From Naegleria gruberi (lineage: Eukaryota): DNA of 64,000 nucleotides. The stretch lies in assembly GCA_000004985.1 (NCBI GenBank), contig GG738912.1; one strand, written 5' to 3'. The position numbers and the translations under genes are program-made. Below the pieces are notes generated by a model. It worked only from the letters and a program-made list of their open reading frames with translations. It searched no databases and was not told the origin of the DNA. Positions 35,594-48,414 of this stretch are shown one piece after another (the stretch's first letter is position 1; each line of letters starts with the position of its first letter).

Positions 35594-36777
35594 ATGCAAG
35601 ATCTGTTGGAAAAAGCGCAACACCATCACGAAAAATTAACATCTGATCTGTTGAATATTAAAAAACAACATTTAAACAAAGAGGAAGAGGAATACGAAAA
35701 GTTTCGAATAACAAATTTGGCAAATATTAGCAATGTAAAGTTGCGGATGAAAAAGAGACGAATATTTGCCATGGACAGTTCGATTTATGGAATTTCTTGG
35801 TCTAGAGATTCATCACTGGTTGTGTCTGTAGCGAGAGGAGGAAATTTAGCAGTAAGTTTTCAAACTGAATGAAGAATAATTTAATTTAGTATAGTTTTGG
35901 AGAACTAGAGAAAATAAGAAAATCGCTGAAATGATGGTTTTGGATTATTGGACAATGTGCTGCAGTTTAAGTCCTTCTGGAAGGTTGATAGCAACTGGAG
36001 GAACCAGAAATGATGTTTATGTTGGTAAGTGATTGGAATATTGGATTCTAAACTGAACTATTTCAGATATTGTTAAAGAAGGAACGTATAAACAAATAAT
36101 TACTCCAACATTTAGAAACATGAGTGGACACCGTGGTTATTTGAGTAGTTGTGAATTTATTGATGAAATTCAACTAGTAACAAGTTCTGGCGATGGGTAT
36201 TGTATTTTGTGGGATGTGGAAATGGGAAGAGCTGTTCATTATTTCAAAGTATGTTGGAATTATTTGGAATCTGATTTAATTAAAAATATTATAGAAACAC
36301 AAATCGGATTGCATGTCAGTTTCTGTAAATCCAATTGATAGGAATTTGTTCATTAGTGGCTCGTGTGATATGAAAGTTTGCTTGTGGGATTTGAGAATGA
36401 AAAAATGTGTGAATTCATTTAAGGGTCATCATTCACATGATATCAATGCTGTGAAATTTTTTCCAAATGGATTGGGTTTCGTAACTGGATCAGAAGATCT
36501 TACCTGTAAACTATTCGATTTAAGGGTTGAAAGACCACTAACGACATTCTCAAATGATGAACTAAATGAGCCAATATCAAGTGTATGTTTCAGCAAGTCG
36601 GGTAGAATTCTATTTGCAAGCCATGGTCCAAGTATTATTGCTTGGGATACCTTAACAGGAAAAATGAATTGTGAAATTGCCAAACTGAATATCAAGTGTT
36701 CTTGCTTGGAAGTTTCTCCTGATGGAAGTGCATTGGCTGCAGGTTCTTGGGATCACTTTCTCCGAATATTTGCTTGA
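35594..36777 (+). CDS. Heterotrimeric G-protein beta subunit (WD40), about 350 aa. Four exons: 35594..35851, 35895..36024, 36067..36248 and 36295..36777, with introns of 43, 42 and 46 nt.
   Basis: The exons align end to end with canonical G-beta: …VVSVARGGNLA|FWRTRENKK…YWTMCCSLSPSGRLIATGG…|D|IVKEGTYK…GHRGYLSSCEF…VTSSGDGYCILWDVEMG…|KHKSDCMSVSVNPIDRNLFISGSCD…FFPNG…GSWDHFLRIFA. Donors are GTAAGT or GTATGT and acceptors are AG. Confidence 0.8.
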
Positions 36778-37122: not shown

Positions 37123-39538
37123 ATGCCCAACAGAGGACAAGGAAATAACTCCTCTGCTTTATTCGGTGCACCTCCTCCAACATCATCATTATCATCTCTA
37201 ATAACAAATTCCGCCATGATGAATAATAATAATTTATTGTTAATGCAGCAACAACAGCAACAGCAGCAACAAGTGGGAAATAAGGATCCTGCTACATCAT
37301 ATAATAATAATAATAATAACAATAATAATAATATTGAAAGTGAAACTAGTAATGATAACGAAGATAGTCAACAAGGAGGAAAGTTTGCTAGTATTGCCTG
37401 TACCTCGTGCAGAAAGCTGCATCGGTATGTATTCTGTAGAATTAACTATTAATTTAAATAATAATGAATAATGAATATTTATATGTGATTACGTTATGTT
37501 GATATTTAAATAATATAGTAAATGTGATAAAACTCTTCCTTGCTGCGCATATTGTGTCAAGACTGGAAAACAATGTGTCTATCCATCACCAAGACGTGGA
37601 AAACAATTTCAACAACAGAAAAAAGCAAATCAATCATCATCCGATGCTCATTCACAACTATTTAATAATCCTTCCGTGGAATCAATGGAAGGTCCTTCAC
37701 TAACTATTCCTACTTCATCTTTTAAACACATTTCTAGTACAAGTTCAATTGATAGTCAGAGTTCAACCTCGTCATCGAATGATGCCTCACCAATACACTA
37801 TACTCCGTATGATACCGGAAAGACTCAACATGAACTCAATTATAAATATGTAGCTACACAGAGTTTAGATATCTACTATAGTGTATTGTGTTACGGATAT
37901 CCACTCATAGAGAGGGAAAGATTACAATCACTAATTGATGGAGGAAAACAAAAAAAGAATGGTCAAAATACGCCACTCTTTGTTTGGCAAAGTAAATTGG
38001 ATCAAGAAAAGGATTATGGACTATTGTACACAATGCAGGCCTTGTGTCTTCAACAATTGGGCCACAAGGATATTTCTTCACAACTCTTCCTTAAAGGAAA
38101 ACAAATAGTTGGTAAATTCTTTGATGAAGTTGACACGTTGAACATTCCGATTGCCATGAAGTTTATGGCTGAATATTTACTAGGCTCAGGAGAAAAGAAG
38201 AAGGCACGAGTGCTGACATCTACTATTAGAACAAATATTGCACCATATCTCAAAGGTAGTGGGCTCATCAACCCTAATAATATGGATAAGGACTTTGGTT
38301 GGATAGATAAGGAACCAAGACTTTTCCCATCTGTTCTATTGGAGAGTCAACTCAAATATTTGGAATTCTTTTTAACAGAGGAAGAATCTCCACAAACATT
38401 TATTTTCGAAGAATTGGAAATTTTAGGCCACAACAAGATGAAATTAGACCTCTCAAAAGTTGGACCAACCTGTAAGAACCTTAATGAAGAAAACAAACAA
38501 AAACTTTTAGCAATCATCAAGACGTATGAGTGTTTCACCGATTTGGTATTTAATACTTTAGCAAAGAAGGATGCACTTGTCTACCTGATAGCTCAACTCA
38601 CAAACAAACAAGTTCATTTGGAAATTTTGCTAAACTGCAGTCCTCAAATAATGGACATTGGTGAGATGCTCAAAATTTCTTACCAAATTATTGAACTTAC
38701 AAAGAACAACTTTTTCACATATATTCCTATTTTCTCTACCAAAGCCATAGTGCTGGCTTGTAGTGTTAGACTGAAATATAATAATCAAGGGCTGAATCCA
38801 CATGGTTTTATAGATTTTAGAGATGATTTAAGAGCTTTAAGAGTGCTGGCTAACCGATTTACTCTCATTCAAAAGGAACATGCCCAGCTCATCAAGACAA
38901 TTGAAAGCGTTTTATATACACAGTCGCTGACACAATCCCACAAGGATATTCCATTTGGCGGTCAACCATCATTCACCTCGGAAGAAAATCCATTCCAAGC
39001 CTTGTTAAATAATCCATCTTCTTCATTCTCTCCAGAGGCTGCCATCTCTGATATTTTACCACCTAACGGATACTATGATGATTTTCTGGATCATGAACAT
39101 GATATTGGACTTTATTCCCAGGGTGATTTGTTTGCCAGCCATCTTTTGGATACTTTCTATGAAAATAATGTGTATGAAACTCGATATAGAAGAATGATGG
39201 AAGATGTTATGGAAGGTTCGGAGAGATTCTCCATTTCCATTCAAAATATGATCAAACAACAACAAGCTCAACAACTTCCAGATGCCCTCCAAAGAGCTGA
39301 GGGTTTAAAGAAGCTACGATTGGATTTGGCAAACCAAATGATAGATATTGCCAAACAACATAACGATATTCCTAGTGTTATTGAGGCTGAGCTCTTCAGA
39401 AGGCAAGTTATTGCTGCCAATGTCAATACACAACAAGCTATACAACTACAACAAAATATAAGAGACAATCATCAACAATTTTCACAATTCTTGGAAACTG
39501 ATTCGAACTTTATGGATGAATATCCTTTTGAAATGTAA
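37123..39538 (+). CDS. Zn(II)2Cys6 binuclear-cluster transcription factor (1), about 773 aa. Two exons: 37123..37424 and 37519..39538, with a 94-nt intron.
   Basis: The intron splits the zinc cluster: …ACTSCRKLHR|KCDKTLPCCAYCVKTGKQCVYPSPRRGKQ… (GTATGT donor, phase 2; aatatAG acceptor). Poly-Q/N N-terminus. Joins ORFs 37123..37452 and 37676..39538. Confidence 0.7.
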
Positions 39539-39808
39539 ATTGTAAATTACCTATTTATTGAATCATGTAAATAATGAAACTGAACTTAATAAAACTGAAG
39601 AAAATTTCAGCATCTCATATTTTAAGGAGAATGTGATAGTAGTGTCTATTTATTTCAAATGTTTTTTAAAAAACAAATTAAATGGATCACAATTTTAACC
39701 ATAAGCGCACATTTATTTCCTCTGTGGACTAATTAAAATCAGTTAGCGGATGAATTGATGAGAGGACATTAAACAGCCATCTTCCTCGCCAAAATTCAAA
39801 TCAAAAAA

Positions 39809-41639
39809 ATGGATTCATTAGAGTTTTCACCATTTAGTCCTTCATCGTGTCTTTCTCTGGGAGGAGAGGTAATACAAACGTCAACAACAAACACTGCAAC
39901 AAGTAGTAACAGTCATGATTCACCATCAAAACTATCAATCGAAGAAGAAAAAGAAATTGATGTGGATAATAGTGATAAGGGAGGAAAACATCCGATTGCA
40001 TGTGCTCGTTGTAGAAAACTGCACAAAAAGGTATGTGATGCTTCTTTGCTTTCTGGTGGTAATCAATAATAATTTAGTGTGACAAAAAGTTGACTGGTTG
40101 TTCGAAATGTGCAAATGCAGGAGTTGATTGTGTGGTAAGTGAATGAAAGCAATTTTCATTAATTTTCTTGAATAATATTCGAAATAGTATAAAACTCCTC
40201 AAAAGAGAGGAAAAGGAGCTGAGCTTTATGCTCAAAATCCATCAAAAAAGAAAAAGAAATCATCAGAATCAATCTCTTTACCTTCAACAGAAATTCAATT
40301 GGAAAAGAAGGGTGTCTTGACAGGAATTACAATGACTGATGTGTATTTTACCTTTGTTTGTGGAATTCATCCAATGATTGAAAAGGAAAAATTGAAATAT
40401 TTTGTAAATAATTGTCTTTATCAATTTGAAAACAAATCAACAGGAGAGGAATTAATACTGGAAGATAATATTTGGATCAAATCAATTGGAGAAATGAAAT
40501 GTTTATATGCTTTATATTTAGCATTGATGAGCGTATCATCTCAAATTGTTGCAGATTTGGAAACAGTTGACAAATGCTTGAGGAAGGCAGAGATAGAGGT
40601 TGCTCTCCTTTCAATAGATTATTCCACAGAGTTTTACTGGGCTGTTGCTTGTCATTATATTAATGTTGCTTACATTGGAGATGGGGATCAGTACAAATCG
40701 AGGTATTACCTTTCCAAAGTGAATTTTTATCTTGAGAATCATTCAGAAAATTCGAATCCATTTTACAGAGTTCTCTACACACACAGTGGAGTTATTTCTT
40801 CGAGATTTAGGAATGAAACATTCTCTTTACAGACACTGCTGAATGGAACAAAGAATATGTTTGAATATTTCACGAATCGTAAAGTGGAAGATGTGTTTCT
40901 TCCAGGAACGTGGGAATACATGATGAATACGAAAATATCTCAACAAAATTATTTACTATTCAAACAGGTTTCTGATTACATTTTCAAAGTGATTGGAGAA
41001 CACAAATTTCAAGCTCAACGAAGTTTGACAGATTGTCACAGCACTGAATATTTCAAAATTCAGAGATTATTCACATGCATGTTAACAGAGGGTTTTTCAT
41101 TCATGTTCATGAAACAAATTCCTGAGATTAGTTTCAATGTAATGGAAGAAATTGCATTGAAAATTACTCTAATGACAGAAAATGAAATGTTTCCATTCCT
41201 AGTTCTTGGAACAATCAATATAGTTGTGGAAACAACTGAATTCCATCTTGGTATTTGTAAAAAGATTGATCTAGGACTTAAACCAAAGCTGGGAACTGTC
41301 AGAACATCCCCATCTAAATCAGTGACTTTTGATTATTTCTCAATTTTAGAAAAAGATTTGAGAGCTCTCAAAATATTGGCAGCTCGATATAGAAGAGTTA
41401 TGAAACTATATCCAAATTTAATTAGTGACATAACCGAACTTATAGAACGAAACAAAATGAAAGATCAAGTTTCATCTACTTTACTTTCCGTATCTGAAAT
41501 ACCTCCATTCTTTGCTCCACCACAACAAGATGAAATTCTGAGAAAGCAATTGGAACAAGCATTCAAAAGGCCAGAGGATGTTGATTCTTATTTTGCTGAG
41601 CAATCACTAGGGGATTGGGAAGAATTATTCAATTTTTAA
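39809..41639 (+). CDS. Zn(II)2Cys6 transcription factor (2). Three exons: 39809..40030, 40078..40134 and 40188..41639.
   Basis: …ACARCRKLHKK|CDKKLTGCSKCANAGVDCV|YKTPQKRGK… Introns have GTATGT and GTAAGT donors (47 and 53 nt). The C-terminal region is highly similar to the gene at 44944. Confidence 0.7.
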
Positions 41640-41722
41640 TAAAATATTTAGAAAACTTTGAAATCAAATATTTTAACAAATTCCATATTTAGAAAATTTA
41701 GAAATTACAATTTTTTTATTAT

Positions 41723-43123
41723 TTATTTGAAAACAAGAACAACATTCTTTTCTGCAAAACCACAGTAAAGTTCTCCAGTAGCACTGTCCAAAGCAATTAC
41801 CATTCCACTTCCAGCATGATATAAACCAAACTTGTAAGGACTATTCTCATTCATGAAAGAAGTGAGACAGGTTCCATCTTCCTTCATAGAATCAATACCA
41901 TATTGAACACAATAAATCTTATTAGTATTTGGTTCAAATTGTGGACATTTTTGAGTGTAGGTTCTTTGCTTGTCAAATTTCTTTAAGATTTTTCCATTCT
42001 TGTTAGTTACCAAGATGGTATCTTCATTGATAAGGACAAGTTCGTTATTGACATTAATACCCATACAATCAATTCTGCTCAATCCAAAAACATTGTTTCC
42101 TTGAATGTTTTGTCTCAAAGTCTTGATAATTTTACCAGTGTCAGGTGACAAAAAGTCAACTCCTCCATTTTGAGCAATGTAAATAGTACCATCAACCTTA
42201 TCAACAGCCATACTATAAATCATACCAGTGCCATCATTTTCCCAGAATACCATCTTACCATTTCTAGAAATTTTCACAATGGTTGATGCACAACATCTGT
42301 CAATAACATAAACAAGTGCCTTATCCTTGGTATCATAACAGAGATGCATATTATCTCTGTCTTGAGGTTCCTTGAAGTGATTCTTCAACATTTTAGTCTT
42401 TAAATCAAATTCAAAGAAAGTCCAACGATCAGCAACGAAAATGGTACGATTGACTGGATCAATTGCAAGACCAGCAACTCCAGCAAATTCAAAATTAAAA
42501 TCTTCATTCTCACCCAAAGTACCAATATGATTATAATTTCCACTGAATGGAACAAAACCACCAGAAGAAGCAGCAACAGATGAACCAGAACCACCAGAGG
42601 AAGAACCTGCACTAGTCAACTCTGAAACATCATTAACATGAGATTTGGTCTTGTTTGATGAATTGTGCAATTTCAAGTGATTTTCACACATGTGAGCATT
42701 ACATTGTTTACAATGATGAGTTGCCAAAACTTTCTCTTCATCATCAGTCAAACACTTGTCACAATTCTTTGCAGCAGAAACTTGACTTTCAATTGGAACC
42801 ACTGAAGAAGCATGTGATTTAGTCTTATTGGAAGTATTGTGAAGATTCAAGTGGTTTTCACAAAAGCACATATTACAGCTAGGACAGGAATGAGTAGCTG
42901 GAATAGTTTCGTCTTCATCCTTTAAACATTTATCACAGTTTCGAATAGTGGATGCTGCAGATAATTCAACAAGATCACTAACGTGTGATTTAGTCTTGTT
43001 TGAAGTATTGTGAAGATTTAAGTGATTATCACAATAGTTCATTTTACATTGCTTGCAGTTGTGAGTTGCAGGCACAGTTTCGTTTTCGTCCTTCAAACAT
43101 TTATCGCAATTGACAACTTTCAT
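41723..43123 (-). CDS. Three B-box-type zinc fingers followed by an NHL-repeat beta-propeller (TRIM-NHL-like architecture without a RING).
   Basis: Three copies of CDKCLxDExExVxATHxCxxCxxxxCxNHLxLHNxSNKTKSH (B-box-like C/H spacing), a Ser/Gly linker, and a C-terminal region with NHL-like repeats (…TIFVADR…, …YVIDR…, …IYIAQNG…). Confidence 0.6.
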   Translation of the reverse strand: MKVVNCDKCLKDENETVPATHNCKQCKMNYCDNHLNLHNTSNKTKSHVSDLVELSAASTIRNCDKCLKDEDETIPATHSCPSCNMCFCENHLNLHNTSNKTKSHASSVVPIESQVSAAKNCDKCLTDDEEKVLATHHCKQCNAHMCENHLKLHNSSNKTKSHVNDVSELTSAGSSSGGSGSSVAASSGGFVPFSGNYNHIGTLGENEDFNFEFAGVAGLAIDPVNRTIFVADRWTFFEFDLKTKMLKNHFKEPQDRDNMHLCYDTKDKALVYVIDRCCASTIVKISRNGKMVFWENDGTGMIYSMAVDKVDGTIYIAQNGGVDFLSPDTGKIIKTLRQNIQGNNVFGLSRIDCMGINVNNELVLINEDTILVTNKNGKILKKFDKQRTYTQKCPQFEPNTNKIYCVQYGIDSMKEDGTCLTSFMNENSPYKFGLYHAGSGMVIALDSATGELYCGFAEKNVVLVFK

Positions 43124-43442
43124 GTTTAGTTTCTGATATTTTTTAAAGTTTTTGATTTGTGTTTAAAGAGATGTGTTTGCTCACTTTTATACTTGGTTGA
43201 GAACCGCCCTCACACTCTCGACCTTTCAATTCTGAGCAAGTTTCGAATAGTTTCATTAAGAGACAATTTTTTGCCTACCAGTTTAAAAAGACAACCCAAT
43301 GAACATGTCGAGAACACAACAAGGAAGAGAGCTTTTTTGGAAAGGGTGATATTGCGTTTTACACATGAGTAAACTTTCGAGAGTTTTTTTGAACTAATTG
43401 CTGAAGTTTCGCATAAATTAAAAAAATAGAGAAACGTTTCAG

Positions 43443-44735
43443 ATGGCAAACTTTTCATTTAGTTTGAATGGTGTATTGAACAATCTACCAAGCTCCTTGT
43501 CATCCATTGGATACAAGGCTAAGAATGCACTCAGTAGAAAGTTAAAAAGTTCAAACGAAGGTAAACGAAACCCACATGCACCTTCAGATAACGATTTTGA
43601 TGAAAATGACTCATCAAATAATAACAATAATAAGAAACCATCCTCTTCATCATCCAACAGATTGGATAATTCATCATCTTCAAAGGCAACTATCAAATCG
43701 TCCAATAAGAAACCAAGAGTAAAGAAACCGAAAGTTGAAGTCAAGTATTGTGATAAATGCTTGAAAGATGAAGAAGAAAAAGTCCAAGCCACTCATTATT
43801 GCTCTGGTTGTTCCATGAATTATTGTGAAGCACACATAAATCTTCACAATTCGGCCAACAAGACGAAAGGTCATGCCGAAAGTGGTCAAGTTTCAAGTCT
43901 AGCTGCTGCACATGTTCCACTTGCTCTCTTACCAGACTTGCAACAAATTTGTGTGCTTCCCAATCCAGATAGCCCATTTTCATGCACAATTGACCATGGT
44001 TATGGTTCTCTATTCGTTCTTGATGGAGATATGTTTATGGAATATGATTTAACAACTAAAGAATTGGTAAATCATTTCAGAGAACCTCAAGAAAGACGTG
44101 CAGTTCGTGTCTGTTACGATTCCAATGATGATACTCTCATTTATGTACTTGACAGATGTGCTTCACATGATATTGTAAAAACTTCAAGAGATGGAAAGAT
44201 GATTCATTGGCAATTGGATGATCAATCACCAATTCGTGATATGAGTGTCGATCCAATTGATGGAACTATTTATACAGTTCAAAATGATGGAATTGTTTGT
44301 GTGAAGGATGGAAAAGTTTCGTCCACATTGAGAGAAAACATTAATGGAAATAACATGTTTGTGGACACCTATGACAATATTTGTGGAGTGACAACTAATC
44401 ATGAAAATAACTTGATAGTTGTTTCGAATAGATATATTATTACTTGTAATAAGAAGGGAAAGATATTTAGCAAAGTTGAAAAGGTCAGTTCTGGTGCAAG
44501 TAAGAGAATTCATTTGGATCCAAGTGGAGAACACATGTACTTTATTGGAGACAGTGGAATTGAGTCAACCAAATTGAATGGAACTTGTCGTACAGAATTT
44601 AGAAATGACAAGGTTGACTATGATCATAAATTTGAAGTTTCTAGAGGAGAAGGAATAGACATGGCCATTGATTTCACATCTGGAGAAGTTTATGTTGTCA
44701 ATCCTCACAAATCAAAAGTTCAAGTATTCAAATAA
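43443..44735 (+). CDS. Single B-box-type zinc finger + NHL-repeat protein, a paralog of the 41723 gene transcribed divergently from it.
   Basis: N-terminal S/N-rich low complexity, then YCDKCLKDEEEKVQATHYCSGCSMNYCEAHINLHNSANKTKGH and a C-terminal region homologous to that of the 41723 gene (…LIYVLDRC…, …GTIYTVQNDG…). Confidence 0.6.
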   Translation: MANFSFSLNGVLNNLPSSLSSIGYKAKNALSRKLKSSNEGKRNPHAPSDNDFDENDSSNNNNNKKPSSSSSNRLDNSSSSKATIKSSNKKPRVKKPKVEVKYCDKCLKDEEEKVQATHYCSGCSMNYCEAHINLHNSANKTKGHAESGQVSSLAAAHVPLALLPDLQQICVLPNPDSPFSCTIDHGYGSLFVLDGDMFMEYDLTTKELVNHFREPQERRAVRVCYDSNDDTLIYVLDRCASHDIVKTSRDGKMIHWQLDDQSPIRDMSVDPIDGTIYTVQNDGIVCVKDGKVSSTLRENINGNNMFVDTYDNICGVTTNHENNLIVVSNRYIITCNKKGKIFSKVEKVSSGASKRIHLDPSGEHMYFIGDSGIESTKLNGTCRTEFRNDKVDYDHKFEVSRGEGIDMAIDFTSGEVYVVNPHKSKVQVFK

Positions 44736-44943
44736 ATGTAATTTTACTCAATTACCACCACCAATTAATTCATATAAATCTACAAGTAGTATCCAATTGC
44801 AATAATAAAGAATGACTGAATTGCAATCTCTACTTGAATACTGTGATGTGTAAATATCAAGTAGAGATGGAAGCGGACATTTTATTGTGAAGGCGCACGT
44901 ATAGTTGGAGATTTTCAAACAATTTCCCACGTTATGAAAAAAA

Positions 44944-46611
44944 ATGGTTGAGGATTCAACAGAGATGGTATTAAACAATTCCTCATCAGAATCATCGGAG
45001 GGAAAACATTCTATTGCATGTGCTCGTTGTAGAAAATTGCACAAAAAGGTATGTGATGCTTCTTTGCTATCAGTTGATAATAATTGTAAACTGTATTTTA
45101 GTGTGACAAAAAGTTGACTGGTTGTTCGAAATGTGCAAATGCAGGTGTTGATTGTGTGGTAGGTTCCAAATAATACTAATTTCAATTCTAATAGAGTTTA
45201 GTATAAAACTCCTCAAAAAAGAGGAAAGGCCTCAGAGCACTATTCTCTACATCCAGCTAAAAGGAAGAAGAAACTTTCAAAATCTTCATCTATTACTGAT
45301 CAACAAGATAAAGTGCTAACTCCCAATACAATGATTGATGTGTATTTCACATGTGTATGTGGAATTCATCCAATGATTGAAAAGGAAAAATTGAAATATT
45401 TTGTAAATACTTGTCTTTATCAATTTGAAAACAAATCAGCAGGAGAGGAATTAATACTGGAAGATAATATTTGGATCAAATCAATTGGAGAAATGAAATG
45501 TTTATATGCTTTATATTTAGCATTGATGAGCGTATCATCTCAAATTGTTGCAGATTTGGAAACAGTTGACAAATACTTGAAGAAGGCAGAGATAGAGATT
45601 GCAACTATTTCTGTTGAACATTCTACAGAGTTTTACTGGGCTGTTGCATGTCATTACTTATTTATTGGATTTGTTGGTGAAGGAGATCAGTACAAATTGG
45701 GATATTACCTTGCTAAAGTGAACTATTTCATTGAAAGTCAATCAGAAACTTGTACGAATCCATTTTTAAAAATTTTGTGTGCAAATTCTAATTTAATTTC
45801 ATCACGATACAAGACTGAAATATTTACTTTACAGACATTGTTGGAGGGAACGAGGAATATGTTTCATTTCTTTACTAATCGTAAAGTGGAGGATGTGCTT
45901 CTTCCAGGAACATGGGATTACATGATGAATACGAAACTATCTCAACAAAACTATTTACTTTTCAAGCAGGTGTTAGATTTCATTTTCAAAGTGTTTAATC
46001 ATTGCAAACACGATATCACCAAAAGTGTGAAAGATTGTCATGGTGAGGATTTTTTCAAAATTCAGAGATTGTTTGCATGTTTACTTTCAGAAGGTTTCGC
46101 ATTCATGTTTATGAAGCAAATTCCTGAGATTAGTTTCAATGTAATGGAAGAAATTGCATTGAAAATTACTCTAATGACTGAACATGAATTGTTTCCTGTT
46201 CTATTTCTTGCAACAGTCGGATTTGCTATTGAGGCTGGAGAATTTCATCTCCAAATTTGTAAAGAAATTGAAATGGGGCTCAAACCAAGAACTGGTGCTG
46301 TGAAGGGAGTTTCAGGAAGGTTAATTACATTCGATTACTTTTCAATACTTGAAAAAGATTTGAGAGCTCTCAATTTATTGGCGGCTAGATATAGAAGAAT
46401 CACCAAATTCTATTCGAAACTCATGACTGAAATGAGTCAAATAATTGAGAGAAACAAGACAATAGATATGCTAGTTCATACAATTTCTTATTCTGAAATT
46501 CAAACTACAAGTAGTCAACCTCCTCAACAAGATGAAATCCTCAGAAAACAATTAGAGCAAGCAGATTTCGAATCATTTCTAACAGACTATCCGCTAGGTG
46601 ATGAATTGTGA
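44944..46611 (+). CDS. Zn(II)2Cys6 transcription factor (3), a recent paralog of gene (2). Three exons: 44944..45048, 45102..45158 and 45202..46611.
   Basis: …ACARCRKLHKK|CDKKLTGCSKCANAGVDCV|YKTPQKRGK… with identical exon-2 sequence and intron positions to the 39809 gene. Long near-identical stretches (e.g. CGIHPMIEKEKLKYFVN…ILEDNIWIKSIGEMKCLYALYLALMSVSSQIVADLETVDK). Confidence 0.7.
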
Positions 46612-46725: not shown

Positions 46726-48381
46726 TTAATACAAGAATTCTGCAAACAATGGCAAGTGATCAGAGCCATGATCTTCATCAGGAATACTTGATTTTGGAAC
46801 GAATTCCAAACAAGGTCCACTATCTTTCACTTGCAAACTTGGAGAATGCCATATGTAATCAACTATTGAATTTCTACCAGTCGTTCCACAACAAGTCCAA
46901 AACTCCTGAACTGTATCATGACTCTTTTGCAGTGGAATACTTTCACAAGCTTCAATTAATTGTATTGGTTTCTCGTGTGGACTTGTATTGAAATCTCCAA
47001 ACCAAATAATACTTGTCTTTTGAGGATCAGCAATTTTTCCAATTTGATTCAAAATTTCATTCACTTGTTTTTCTCTTGGGCCAGTATCACGAGGTTGGAA
47101 TGTCAAATGACAATTTATAATACAGAAGAATCGACCTTTCACTCTATCCCTTGCAATAACGTATTGAAATACTTCAGGATACTCCTTCACTAAGGTCTTT
47201 TCTCCCTTATTGAATATTTCAAATTTGGTATTTCTAATAGCAAGTATCAAGCCGTCCTTCTTTGGATAATTCTTATACGAATGGTAAACTGAAAATCCTT
47301 CTTGTTCCAGAAAGAATTGAATTTGAGAAGCATGTTGATTATCAATTTCTTGTAGACCAATTATATCAAATCTTCTCTCCTTCAAGACGGAAAATATTTT
47401 ATACTTTCGTATTTCCCAATCCAGATATTTCTGATTGGTAATATTCGAATATCTACTCAAAGAAATGTAACATTGTGCCAAAATATTATAGGAACAGACC
47501 AGAATAGTTGGTGGAGGAAAGGACAGATTAGTTTGTGGTAGATTTTCTGATCTTGATCCAATGATGACCTGATTATTCTGGACTGGAGAAACATGAAAAT
47601 GTTGAAATTGCTTTCCAGAATTTTGAGGATTGTAAAAATTTTGAGGAGGATAATTTTGAATTGCTTGATTTGGATAATTTGCAATTGGTTGTAAAATTTT
47701 GGGATTTGCATATTGAATTGGAGGAGGTTGATTTTGTTGGTGGTGTTGTTGATGACTATTAGAAACTGAACTAGTTCCTTTCTGATTATTACCATAATGA
47801 GCTTGATAGGTAGTTTGATTTTTGGCAGGTTTTTGACTACTTGACTGATTAGTAGAATCAATCTGCTTCTTCTTCTTCTCATTCACCCCATGACATTCCT
47901 TCCACACAGGTTCATCACTTCCATGTATAAAACAATATCTATGCCATCTTTCCTTATTATAGCATTTTTCACCATATTTGCACGGATGATGAAACTTGAA
48001 TTTGTGTGAAAATTCCTTATTTTCATCCAGTAATGATTTACAATTTAGTCCATACTTGCACGGATGATAAAATTGAAAATTATGATTGGAATCATTGGTG
48101 AGTTTACAATTTTCCCAATTTGGACATCTCAAAGAAACTAATTGTTCATCATCAATCCCTTGAATTACATTCGAAACATCTGAAAAAAAGTGTTTGGCCT
48201 TTCGAATAATTTCTTTCGAAAAATTAGTTTCATGTTTAAAAGTTAAATTGTGTTTCTTATTGGTGAGGAGAGAACAATCCTTCCCGAATGGACAGGTATG
48301 GATGAAATAATGTGTATGATTGGAGTCAAATAGATTATAACAATTTTCATCGTATTGACAAACTGTAAGTTTTGATGACAT
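46726..48381 (-). CDS. Protein with five PBZ-type (poly-ADP-ribose-binding) zinc fingers, a Q/N/P-rich linker, and a C-terminal CCR4/nocturnin-type endonuclease-exonuclease-phosphatase (EEP) domain.
   Basis: PBZ-like CxxxxxC-x7-HxxxFxH motifs: CQYDENCYNLFDSNHTHYFIH, CPFGKDCSLLTNKKHNLTFKH, CPNWENCKLTNDSNHNFQFYH, CKYGLNCKSLLDENKEFSHKFKFHH and CKYGEKCYNKERWHRYCFIH. EEP motifs VCSYNILAQCY…W.IR…DIIGLQEIDN, …GDFNTSP and …GSDHLP. True ATG at 48381 (caaaaaaaATG). Confidence 0.65.
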   Translation of the reverse strand: MSSKLTVCQYDENCYNLFDSNHTHYFIHTCPFGKDCSLLTNKKHNLTFKHETNFSKEIIRKAKHFFSDVSNVIQGIDDEQLVSLRCPNWENCKLTNDSNHNFQFYHPCKYGLNCKSLLDENKEFSHKFKFHHPCKYGEKCYNKERWHRYCFIHGSDEPVWKECHGVNEKKKKQIDSTNQSSSQKPAKNQTTYQAHYGNNQKGTSSVSNSHQQHHQQNQPPPIQYANPKILQPIANYPNQAIQNYPPQNFYNPQNSGKQFQHFHVSPVQNNQVIIGSRSENLPQTNLSFPPPTILVCSYNILAQCYISLSRYSNITNQKYLDWEIRKYKIFSVLKERRFDIIGLQEIDNQHASQIQFFLEQEGFSVYHSYKNYPKKDGLILAIRNTKFEIFNKGEKTLVKEYPEVFQYVIARDRVKGRFFCIINCHLTFQPRDTGPREKQVNEILNQIGKIADPQKTSIIWFGDFNTSPHEKPIQLIEACESIPLQKSHDTVQEFWTCCGTTGRNSIVDYIWHSPSLQVKDSGPCLEFVPKSSIPDEDHGSDHLPLFAEFLY

Positions 48382-48414
48382 TTTTTTTGACAAGTGAATT
48401 CTGACAGATAAAAA

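What the first reader, a model, noticed from the sequence alone, without database searches (positions are those of the whole stretch)
37123..46611. Zn2Cys6 transcription-factor paralog block around a divergent B-box+NHL gene pair, with a recent duplication
Three Zn(II)2Cys6 genes lie at 37123, 39809 and 44944. Each has an intron inside or next to the zinc-cluster coding region. Genes 2 and 3 share an identical 57-nt second exon, identical intron positions, and long near-identical stretches further downstream, so they are a very recent duplicate. Between them sit two divergently transcribed RING-less B-box + NHL-propeller genes. Gene 1 is an older, more diverged copy. B-box+NHL without a RING is reminiscent of metazoan TRIM-NHL RNA regulators but lacks the E3 module. 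The co-clustering suggests a locally expanding regulatory gene family.
Basis: seen in the sequence. Interest (0 to 1): 0.6.

Follow-up and report, generated by a model that had tools for sequence, protein, structure and literature searches.

The report
Naegleria zinc-cluster and B-box–NHL gene block
This stretch of the amoeba Naegleria gruberi carries three Gal4-type transcription-factor genes and a head-to-head pair of B-box plus NHL-propeller genes; the two "recently duplicated" factors are really old copies that keep overwriting patches of each other, so the block is real and tidy but mostly ordinary.

The parts
37123..39538 (+). Gene 1: Zn2Cys6 transcription factor, 773 aa. Exons 37123-37424 and 37519-39538, with one phase-2 intron inside the zinc-cluster coding region.
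   Evidence: The spliced model equals the deposited N. gruberi protein EFC37985 / P0084 exactly. Pfam Zn_clus scores 31 bits against a cut-off of 21. Orthologs exist in N. fowleri, N. lovaniensis and Willaertia.
39809..41639 (+). Gene 2: Zn2Cys6 plus a Cep3-like helical domain, 576 aa. Exons 39809-40030, 40078-40134 and 40188-41639.
41723..43123 (-). A-type gene: three tandem B-box-like zinc modules, a 28-residue Ser/Gly linker and a six-bladed NHL-type propeller. 466 aa, single exon, with no deposited gene model.
43124..43442 (.). 319-bp head-to-head intergenic region of the A/B pair; presumed bidirectional promoter.
   Evidence: Its coordinates follow from the two start codons. Intergenic regions of comparable length (323 and 368 bp) separate the pairs in L001 and L002. 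It holds three copies of AASTTTCG and no CGG-Nx-CCG site.
43443..44735 (+). B-type gene: basic low-complexity N-terminus, one B-box-like module and an NHL-type propeller. 430 aa, single exon.
   Evidence: Equals the deposited EFC37987 / P0004 exactly. It is 40% identical to the A-type gene. Pfam hits are sub-threshold: ANCHR-like_BBOX 19.8 bits and NHL 14.6 bits.
44944..46611 (+). Gene 3: Zn2Cys6 plus a helical domain homologous to gene 2's Cep3-like domain, 523 aa. Exons 44944-45048, 45102-45158 and 45202-46611.
   Evidence: The spliced model is in frame with canonical GT..AG introns at the same positions as gene 2. Zn_clus scores 33.3 bits. The deposited model EFC37988 / P0008 (426 aa) starts at Met98 and lacks the zinc cluster.
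39983..40134 (+). Conversion tract 1, paired with 45001-45158. It covers the zinc-cluster coding sequence: the end of exon 1, the first 20 nt of intron 1, and exon 2.
   Evidence: dS is 0.15 with 25/25 identical residues. Exon 2 is 56/57 identical. Sliding identity is 48-57 of 60.
40337..40601 (+). Conversion tract 2, paired with 45336-45600. It encodes gene 2 residues 143-231, the first helices of the helical domain.
   Evidence: dS is 0.00-0.17. It contains a 135-nt perfect run (40441-40575 = 45440-45574), longer than the maximum of 60 seen in 10000 permutations. It also has 81 consecutive identical third positions against a permutation maximum of 39. The tract is present in the second strain as well.
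40875..40949 (+). Conversion tract 3, paired with 45877-45951; older or shorter than tract 2.
   Evidence: dS is 0.25, against 0.84-1.48 in the flanking 25-codon windows. Identity is 69/75.
41100..41176 (+). Conversion tract 4, paired with 46102-46178. It encodes the most conserved motif of the family (ALKITLxTE).
   Evidence: dS is 0.18 with 25/25 identical residues. It contains a 62-nt perfect run.

Best explanation
The interval is a compact stretch of Naegleria gruberi chromosome with five genes from two lineage-restricted families.

(1) The transcription factors. Three Gal4-type transcription factors each have an N-terminal Zn2Cys6 DNA-binding cluster. For gene 2, a large all-helical domain is predicted to fold like the middle homology domain of yeast Cep3. 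This is the fungal 'Zn2C6-MHD' layout in a heterolobosean.

(2) Genes 2 and 3. They are old paralogs in direct orientation, 3.3 kb apart. Repeated short-tract interlocus gene conversion has overwritten four patches: the DNA-binding exons, the first helices of the helical domain, and two short motifs. The rest of the regulatory domain has diverged to about 55% protein identity. By inference, the two factors keep the same DNA-binding specificity but differ in their regulatory domain.

(3) Gene 1. It is a separate, ancient member of the family, conserved across Naegleria and Willaertia.

(4) The pair between genes 2 and 3. These two genes encode B-box plus six-bladed NHL-propeller proteins with no RING and no coiled coil. 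The multi-B-box 'A' type and single-B-box 'B' type diverged first. The head-to-head A/B unit was then copied, giving at least three loci. By inference, the 319-bp shared region acts as a bidirectional promoter. Also by inference, the A and B proteins act together, with B-boxes mediating assembly and the propellers binding a ligand.

(5) Adjacency. The neighbourhood of the two families looks coincidental rather than functional.

Shown: gene structures, domain content, the conversion mosaic, recurrence of the pair, and purifying selection on the unannotated gene. Inferred: DNA binding, co-regulation, heteromer formation and the ligand.
For: - Organism and models: three of the five proteins equal deposited N. 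gruberi entries.
- Zinc cluster: Pfam Zn_clus is above its cut-off in all three genes. A family profile hits PUT3, LAC9, HAP1 and GAL4 DNA-binding domains.
- Conversion, divergence: dS is 0.00-0.25 in the four tracts and about 0.5-2 elsewhere. A control window with 22/25 identical residues still has dS 1.0.
- Conversion, run lengths: the 135-nt perfect run and the 81 consecutive identical third positions exceed all 10000 permutations.
- Conversion, age of the split: outside the tracts, gene 2 vs gene 3 identity (55-58%) equals their identity to the dispersed paralog P0009 (47-57%).
- Conversion, second strain: an independent assembly shows the same main tract. In the 135-nt core the two paralogs differ at 0 sites, while gene 3 differs at 4 sites between strains.
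- B-box: the ligand pattern is C-x2-C-x12/13-C-x2-C-x4-C-x2-H-x3-H-x8-H. It aligns in register with KAP1 B-box 1. The profile reaches proteins that pass zf-B_box. One paralog is named 'B box-type domain-containing protein' by UniProt.
- Pair recurrence: L001 and L002 carry head-to-head A/B pairs. A-types group with A-types (46-55% identity) and B-types with B-types (36-51%), against 30-40% between A and B.
- The unannotated gene is real: between strains its CDS differs by 0.8% with omega 0.17, while the intergenic region is 93% identical.
Against: - The helical-domain assignment rests on a predicted model (mean pLDDT 69.6). Pfam Fungal_trans gives no hit.
- No window protein reaches the Pfam cut-off for any B-box or NHL model.
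- The three paired intergenic regions share no clear motif, so common regulation is unproven.
- The introns flanking the nearly identical exon 2 are diverged. This requires either very short conversion tracts or fast intron turnover.
- The contigs carrying the other pairs are about 3 kb long, so their wider neighbourhoods are unseen.
- No expression data were available.
Confidence: 0.75

Rival explanations
1. One reading: genes 2 and 3 are a very recent duplicate, and the identical stretches are what remains of that duplication.
For: Shared intron positions, exon 2 at 56/57 identity, and a stretch of about 240 nt at 97-99% identity.
Against: dS is about 0.5-2 over roughly 70% of the coding sequence. 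Most of the intron sequence and the 5' and 3' flanks are not alignable. Outside the tracts the two genes are no closer to each other than to P0009 on another contig. A window with 22/25 identical residues has dS 1.0, so protein-level constraint does not lower dS here.
Confidence: 0.03
2. The near-identical tracts are kept by selection on the nucleotide sequence itself, for example an embedded RNA, a splicing enhancer for the 57-nt micro-exon, or a regulatory element, rather than by gene conversion.
For: Exon 2 is conserved while its flanking introns are not. Exon 2 is 57/57 identical between strains.
Against: No Rfam family hits the tracts. Tract 1 runs 20 nt into intron 1. Four separate tracts with different dS values fit repeated conversion better. 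A 135-nt perfect match inside a coding helix region has no obvious RNA role. Within the core the paralogs (0 differences) are closer than the two strains' copies of gene 3 (4 differences), which is expected from ongoing exchange.
Confidence: 0.05
3. The block is a functional unit like a fungal gene cluster with its own pathway-specific zinc-cluster regulator: the flanking Zn2Cys6 factors control the B-box/NHL pair.
For: Tight physical adjacency, with 83-bp and 208-bp gaps to the pair. Fungal Zn2Cys6 genes often sit next to their targets (established knowledge).
Against: The 319-bp promoter region has a single CGG and no CGG-Nx-CCG site, and the same holds for the two paralogous pairs. The other Zn2Cys6 paralogs are recorded on contigs of 304373, 209908, 348446 and 381539 bp. 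The other family members are on contigs of 665159, 418085, 747259 and 342059 bp. The adjacency therefore does not recur. The 7-kb contig L004, which carries a relative, has no Zn2Cys6 hit.
Confidence: 0.08
4. The B-box/NHL proteins are true relatives of animal TRIM-NHL RNA regulators (Brat, Lin-41, Mei-P26) and repress mRNAs through their NHL propeller.
Against: There is no RING and no coiled coil. Both propellers are acidic overall (pI 5.9 and 5.25), whereas to my recollection RNA-binding NHL domains use a basic face; surface charge could not be mapped. Sequence identity to TRIM-NHL propellers is 14-17%, and other six-bladed propellers score nearly as well. B-box and NHL are both widespread domains, so independent fusion is plausible.
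Confidence: 0.15
5. The identical tracts are an assembly artefact, with reads from two paralogs collapsed or chimerically joined.
For: Near-identical repeats can mislead assemblers.
Against: An independent metagenome assembly of a second strain (L006, 98.3% identical to the window) carries the same tract in gene 3, 229/240 identical to gene 2. Reading frames are intact in both copies.
Confidence: 0.01

Closest known systems
Fungal Gal4-type Zn2Cys6-MHD ('CeGAL') transcription factors, with Cep3 as the structural reference
   Same: - The six-cysteine cluster has canonical spacing and sits at the N-terminus, and Pfam Zn_clus is passed.
- A large all-helical domain follows. In gene 2 its best structural match is Cep3.
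- As reported for fungal genomes in PMC10141177, 'MHD-only' gene models here come from missed 5' exons: gene 3's deposited model lacks its zinc cluster. P0009 and P0010 also carry no Zn_clus in their deposited models and may have the same cause, which was not checked.
   Different: - The host is a heterolobosean (Discoba), not a fungus.
- The helical domain is too diverged for Pfam Fungal_trans.
- No coiled-coil dimerisation element is evident after the cluster (residues 97-134 have low confidence).
- DNA targets are unknown.
- Zinc-cluster factors outside fungi are already recorded for Acanthamoeba (22) and Dictyostelium (3) (PMC4053784).
RING-less TRIM-NHL proteins of animals (Drosophila Brat, C. 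elegans NCL-1) and Lin-41/TRIM71
   Same: - N-terminal B-box zinc modules followed by a C-terminal six-bladed NHL propeller.
- No RING, as in Brat (from memory).
- The NHL domains of Mei-P26, Brat, Lin41 and TRIM2 are the best structural matches.
   Different: - No coiled coil: a 28-residue Ser/Gly linker joins the B-boxes to the propeller.
- All B-boxes are of one type-1-like kind, present in one to three copies.
- The propellers are acidic.
- Only 14-17% identity to the animal NHL domains.
- The genes are organised as head-to-head A/B pairs.
- The host lies outside animals, whereas TRIM-NHL subfamily C is listed as animal-only (PMC3503706).
Interlocus (ectopic) gene conversion between linked paralogs
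   Same: Direct-orientation paralogs a few kb apart. Short tracts of near identity lie in a diverged background. Synonymous sites are homogenised. Different tracts have different ages.
   Different: Nothing unusual. The only notable point is that the tracts cover the DNA-binding exons and conserved motifs. That could reflect either a bias in where conversion initiates or selection retaining those events.

Membership tests
Zn(II)2Cys6 binuclear cluster (Gal4-type) DNA-binding domain | Six cysteines spaced C-x2-C-x6-C-x5-12-C-x2-C-x6-8-C, and recognition by Pfam PF00172 above its cut-off | tested here: met
   All three genes score 31-33 bits against a cut-off of 21. The spacing can be read from the spliced translations. 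A family profile hits PUT3 at 2.6e-7, and also LAC9, HAP1 and GAL4.
Zn2C6-MHD ('CeGAL') transcription factors | Middle homology domain recognised by Pfam Fungal_trans (PF04082) or Fungal_trans_2 | tested here: not met
   No hit for genes 1-3 at E<=0.1. No hit for the ten aligned family members at E<=1.
Zn2C6-MHD ('CeGAL') transcription factors | All-alpha domain with the Cep3 MHD fold, C-terminal to the cluster | tested here: met
Zn2C6-MHD ('CeGAL') transcription factors | Sequence-specific binding to CGG-containing sites, usually as a dimer | not testable with these tools
   No binding data exist. No coiled coil is evident in the low-confidence linker at residues 97-134.
B-box zinc finger | Recognition by Pfam zf-B_box (PF00643) or a related B-box model above its cut-off | tested here: not met
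   No PF00643 hit at E<=0.1. ANCHR-like_BBOX scores 21.5 and 19.8 bits against a cut-off of 27.
B-box zinc finger | Eight Cys/His ligands in B-box type 1 spacing, and homology to known B-boxes | tested here: met
   The pattern C-x2-C-x12/13-C-x2-C-x4-C-x2-H-x3-H-x8-H is present in all ten units. The units align in register with KAP1/TRIM28 B-box 1 (6o5k), at E 0.004 with the full profile and 0.036 with the unit profile. The family profile hits P0027 and P0028, which pass zf-B_box at 30.6 and 92 bits. Paralog P0006 is named 'B box-type domain-containing protein' by UniProt.
NHL repeat propeller | Recognition by Pfam NHL (PF01436) above its cut-off | tested here: not met
   The A-type gene has no hit. 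The B-type gene scores 14.6 bits against a cut-off of 20.
NHL repeat propeller | Six-bladed propeller homologous to recognised NHL domains | tested here: met
TRIM / RBCC (tripartite motif) family | N-terminal RING finger | tested here: not met
   The A-type protein starts five residues before its first B-box. The B-type N-terminus (residues 1-99) has no Cys/His pattern. The 319-bp intergenic region has no room for a RING exon and no RING-like ORF.
TRIM / RBCC (tripartite motif) family | Coiled coil after the B-box(es) | tested here: not met
   A 28-residue Ser/Gly-rich, low-confidence linker (170-195) joins B-box 3 to the propeller. No helix is predicted there.
Interlocus gene conversion | Tracts of near identity at synonymous sites in an otherwise heavily diverged paralog pair, beyond chance and not an assembly artefact | tested here: met
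   dS is 0.00-0.25 in the tracts and about 0.5-2 outside. No permutation of 10000 reaches the observed runs. A second-strain assembly shows the same main tract. Outside the tracts the pair is as diverged as from a dispersed paralog.

The most novel reading that the evidence does not exclude
Heteroloboseans (Naegleria, Willaertia) carry genuine relatives of the animal TRIM-NHL lineage. The B-box-(coiled coil)-NHL layout would then predate animals or have been transferred between lineages. The Naegleria A/B pairs would be a stripped-down heteromeric version that regulates mRNAs or protein partners through the propeller. In parallel, the 'fungal-specific' Zn2C6-MHD transcription-factor architecture would be an old eukaryotic invention that is also retained in Discoba.
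Probability: 0.15. Interest if true: 0.6.

Novelty: new variant of a known kind. Interest (0 to 1): 0.33.

Why it matters
Several modest points follow.

- **Architecture outside its reported range.** The Zn2C6-plus-MHD layout is described as fungal-specific (PMC10141177). Here it appears in a heterolobosean, with a helical domain too diverged for Pfam. Claims of fungal specificity for the MHD may therefore partly reflect model sensitivity.
- **Range of B-box/NHL proteins.** Proteins combining B-box and NHL are listed as animal-only within the TRIM family (PMC3503706). A small, almost Naegleria-restricted family has the same two domains, and a Willaertia relative has a fuller layout. This gives a non-animal comparison point for how these modules combine.
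- **A methodological caution.** Near-identical exons between neighbouring paralogs were read as a recent duplication, when they are conversion tracts on old copies.
- **Annotation fixes for N. gruberi.** One gene is missing (41723-43123, minus strand), and one transcription factor model lacks its DNA-binding exons (gene 3).

None of this overturns current understanding.

Tried and rejected
- **Exact look-ups.** Look-ups of the A-type protein, P0004 and P0006 in the assembly index found nothing. The other NEG-M contigs could not be read, so the neighbourhoods of the other pairs in the reference genome remain unseen.
- **Shared promoter motifs.** Among the three head-to-head intergenic regions nothing of 8 nt or more is shared by all three, and there is no Gal4-type CGG pair. 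The AASTTTCG enrichment was picked after looking at the sequence, so it is only a lead.
- **Rfam scan of 36.5-47.5 kb.** It gave only a sub-threshold, evidently chance CRISPR-DR6 hit inside the B-box repeats.
- **Literature searches.** Naegleria combined with Zn2Cys6, Zn_clus, or B-box/NHL returned nothing. The pan-eukaryote transcription-factor survey I wanted (PubMed 24277850) is not held.
- **Donor scenario.** I considered that the divergent segments of genes 2 and 3 were imported from other paralogs after a recent duplication. I rejected it because neither gene is unusually close to P0009 or P0010 in those segments.
- **Net charge of the propellers.** This is only a weak proxy for RNA binding.


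Full report
**What the sequence is.** The window is AT-rich (about 33% GC) with short GT..AG introns. The 430-aa ORF at 43443-44735 equals a deposited Naegleria gruberi protein residue for residue (P0004 / EFC37987, contig of 238,573 bp). My spliced models of gene 1 (773 aa) and gene 2 (576 aa) also equal deposited proteins exactly (P0084 and P0007). Deposited accessions run consecutively: EFC37985 (gene 1), EFC37986 (gene 2), EFC37987 (the plus-strand B-box gene) and EFC37988 (gene 3).

**The three Zn2Cys6 genes.**
- All three pass Pfam Zn_clus (31-33 bits, cut-off 21). A family profile hits the PUT3, LAC9, HAP1 and GAL4 DNA-binding domains in the PDB.
- Genes 2 and 3 have two phase-0 introns at identical positions, before the third cysteine and after the sixth.
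- Gene 1 has one phase-2 intron, 4 nt away from the first of these, and no second intron.
- The deposited model of gene 3 (P0008, 426 aa) starts at Met98 of my 523-aa model and lacks the zinc cluster. This is the same annotation error that the CeGAL study reports for 'MHD-only' fungal factors (PMC10141177).
- Pfam Fungal_trans gives no hit in any of ten family members.
- The architecture is therefore the Zn2C6-MHD layout, with the caveat that this rests on a prediction. Zinc-cluster factors outside fungi are already recorded in Amoebozoa (PMC4053784).

**Genes 2 and 3 are not a recent duplicate.**
- Exon 2 is 56/57 identical, not identical.
- Overall coding identity is 76% over 1554 nt, and protein identity is 67%.
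- Identity is mosaic. In 25-codon windows, Nei-Gojobori dS is 0.00 for 40425-40574, 0.17 for 40350-40424, 0.15 for the zinc-cluster window, 0.25 for 40875-40949 and 0.18 for 41100-41174. Elsewhere it is about 0.5-2.
- A control window (41325-41399) has 22/25 identical residues and still dS 1.0. Protein-level constraint therefore does not explain the low-dS tracts.
- The longest perfect run is 135 nt (40441-40575 = 45440-45574). There are 81 consecutive identical third codon positions. No permutation of 10000 reaches either value; the permutation maxima are 60 and 39.
- Outside the tracts, genes 2 and 3 are 55-58% identical in protein. That is the same as either is to P0009, a paralog recorded on a contig of different length (47-57%). 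The duplication is therefore about as old as the spread of this N. gruberi-specific subfamily.
- A metagenome assembly of a second, 98.3%-identical strain (L006) has the same main tract in gene 3 (229/240 identical to gene 2), which rules out an assembly artefact.
- In the 135-nt core the two paralogs differ at 0 sites, while the two strains' copies of gene 3 differ at 4 sites. This suggests exchange about as recent as, or more recent than, the strain split, though the numbers are small.
- The tracts encode gene 2 residues 59-93 (the DNA-binding cluster), 143-231 (the first helices of the helical domain), 323-347 and 398-423 (the ALKITLxTE motif).
- I infer that the two factors retain one DNA-binding specificity while their regulatory domains differ.

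**Gene 1.** It has clear orthologs in N. fowleri (67%), N. lovaniensis (58%) and Willaertia magna (41%). It is only about 20% identical to gene 2 beyond the cluster. It is an ancient separate lineage of the family, not an older local copy of the gene 2/3 pair. By contrast, gene 2's closest relative in another species is only 26% identical.

**The divergent pair.**
- Layout: the minus-strand ORF (41723-43123, 466 aa, 'A-type') has three tandem zinc modules. The plus-strand gene (430 aa, 'B-type') has one, preceded by a basic low-complexity N-terminus containing KKPRVKKPK. The two proteins are 40% identical.
- Direct Pfam evidence is weak. zf-B_box gives no hit, ANCHR-like_BBOX scores 21.5 and 19.8 bits (cut-off 27), and NHL scores 14.6 bits (cut-off 20) in one gene.
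- B-box evidence: every unit has the type-1 ligand spacing C-x2-C-x12/13-C-x2-C-x4-C-x2-H-x3-H-x8-H and aligns in register with KAP1/TRIM28 B-box 1.
- Exhaustive search: a profile search of 1.84 billion representatives finds only 62 proteins at E<=1e-3 and 15 at E<=1e-10. Of the ten top non-query hits I looked up, eight clusters carry a name: seven are Naegleria and one is an Acinetobacter repeat protein.
- Bridging members: N. lovaniensis P0019 matches over its full length (E 1e-45). It carries the same B-box and passes Pfam NHL at 73.6 bits. The B-box columns reach proteins that pass zf-B_box, and the profile also reaches TRIM71-like proteins.
- What is absent: there is no RING and no coiled coil. 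A 28-residue Ser/Gly linker joins the B-boxes to the propeller.

**The pair is a recurring unit.** Two short contigs from the same second-strain sample carry further head-to-head pairs. L001 holds P0005 and P0003, separated by 323 bp. L002 holds P0016 and P0002, separated by 368 bp. A-types group with A-types (46-55% identity) and B-types with B-types (36-51%), against 30-40% between the types. The A/B split therefore came first, and the pair was then copied as a unit. L003 is the same locus as the window in the second strain (97.5% nucleotide identity). Between strains the A-type CDS differs at 0.8% of sites with omega 0.17, while the intergenic region is 93% identical. The unannotated gene is therefore under purifying selection. 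Co-regulation from a bidirectional promoter and an A/B heteromer are inferences. The three intergenic regions share no clear motif.

**Is the co-clustering meaningful?** The evidence says probably not. Other Zn2Cys6 relatives and other B-box/NHL members are recorded on contigs of different lengths. A 7-kb contig carrying a relative has no zinc-cluster gene. The pair's promoter region has no Gal4-type site. The contigs with the other pairs are too short to settle this.

**Comparison with known families.** The transcription factors work like, and structurally resemble, fungal Zn2C6-MHD factors. They fail the sequence model for the MHD. The pair resembles RING-less TRIM-NHL proteins such as Brat in domain order and propeller fold. 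It fails two defining TRIM features, the RING and the coiled coil, so I do not file it as a TRIM. Marin's survey lists the TRIM-NHL subfamily as animal-only (PMC3503706). Willaertia P0049 (615 aa) has, in order:
- the same signature B-box (40% identical to a unit of the A-type protein);
- a second B-box scoring 24.0 bits, against a cut-off of 24.1;
- an Asn/Leu/Lys-rich stretch that looks coiled-coil-like by eye;
- NHL repeats scoring 61.8 bits.

A fuller B-box/NHL layout thus exists in Heterolobosea. My data cannot distinguish common descent, transfer and convergence. Both propellers are acidic (pI 5.9 and 5.25), which argues weakly against RNA binding.

**Verdict.** The headline interpretation of a very recent duplication is wrong and is replaced by gene conversion on old paralogs. 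The B-box/NHL call holds after testing, at the level of fold and transitive homology. The block is a tidy example of lineage-specific families in a protist, with two annotation corrections. It is of moderate interest to specialists in TRIM or zinc-cluster evolution and is otherwise ordinary.

Noticed in passing
window 41723-43123 (-): The three-B-box A-type gene has no deposited N. gruberi model: accessions EFC37986 and EFC37987 flank it directly. It is intact and constrained between strains. The A-type partner of the L001-type locus (P0003) also has only ENA members. In NEG-M, the neighbour of its B-type partner is a different 784-aa double-propeller protein.
   Followed up: partly
window 44944-45201: The deposited model of gene 3 (EFC37988, 426 aa) omits the two 5' exons that encode the zinc cluster. 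The paralogs P0009 (374 aa) and P0010 (320 aa) also lack Zn_clus in their deposited models and may be truncated in the same way.
   Followed up: partly
window 43238, 43372, 43404 (all +); also 46695 and 11 other sites: The octamer AASTTTCG occurs 15 times in the window against 3.0 expected (maximum 8 in 100 shuffles). Three copies lie inside the 319-bp head-to-head promoter region. It was chosen after looking at the sequence, so it is only a lead for a Naegleria promoter element.
   Followed up: partly
window 46726-48393 (-): A 555-aa ORF lies tail-to-tail with gene 3. Its C-terminal part passes Pfam Exo_endo_phos at 61.6 bits. By eye, its N-terminal part carries several C-x-[FY]-G-x2-C...H-x3-[FY]-x-H motifs that look like PAR-binding (PBZ) zinc fingers. 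Pfam reported no zinc-finger family for them at E<=0.01.
   Followed up: partly
window 36313-36777 (+): This is the last exon of a G-protein beta-like WD40 gene, upstream of gene 1. WD40_Gbeta scores 146 bits on the 154-aa fragment.
   Followed up: partly
Willaertia magna protein P0049 (ABK040_005426): A 615-aa protein with the Naegleria-type B-box, a second B-box (24.0 bits against a cut-off of 24.1), an Asn/Leu/Lys-rich stretch that looks coiled-coil-like by eye, and NHL repeats (61.8 bits). This is a Brat/Lin-41-like layout without a RING in a heterolobosean.
   Followed up: partly
L001, L002, L003, L006 (ENA ERZ929261, PRJEB11402): A sample labelled as a metagenome contains a Naegleria gruberi-like genome. 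Two of its contigs, L003 and L006, are 97.5% and 98.3% identical to the window. It served as a second strain for divergence and conversion dating.
   Followed up: yes
N. gruberi proteins P0075 (EFC40534, DUF7932 + B-box-like region) and P0077 (EFC40535): Two adjacent genes on another N. gruberi contig both fall in clusters hit by the family profile. One combines DUF7932 with B-box-like modules. This may be another paired locus.
   Followed up: no
window 40031-40077 / 45049-45101 and 40135-40187 / 45159-45201: The introns flanking the nearly identical 57-nt exon 2 are largely unalignable, apart from the first 20 nt of intron 1. Possible causes are very short conversion tracts, rapid intron indel turnover, or nucleotide-level constraint on the micro-exon. 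This is unresolved.
   Followed up: partly
window 42786-42834 (-): A sub-threshold Rfam CRISPR-DR6 match (28.2 bits against a gathering score of 39, E 0.016) lies inside the B-box coding repeats. It is evidently a chance hit in a eukaryotic coding region.
   Followed up: yes
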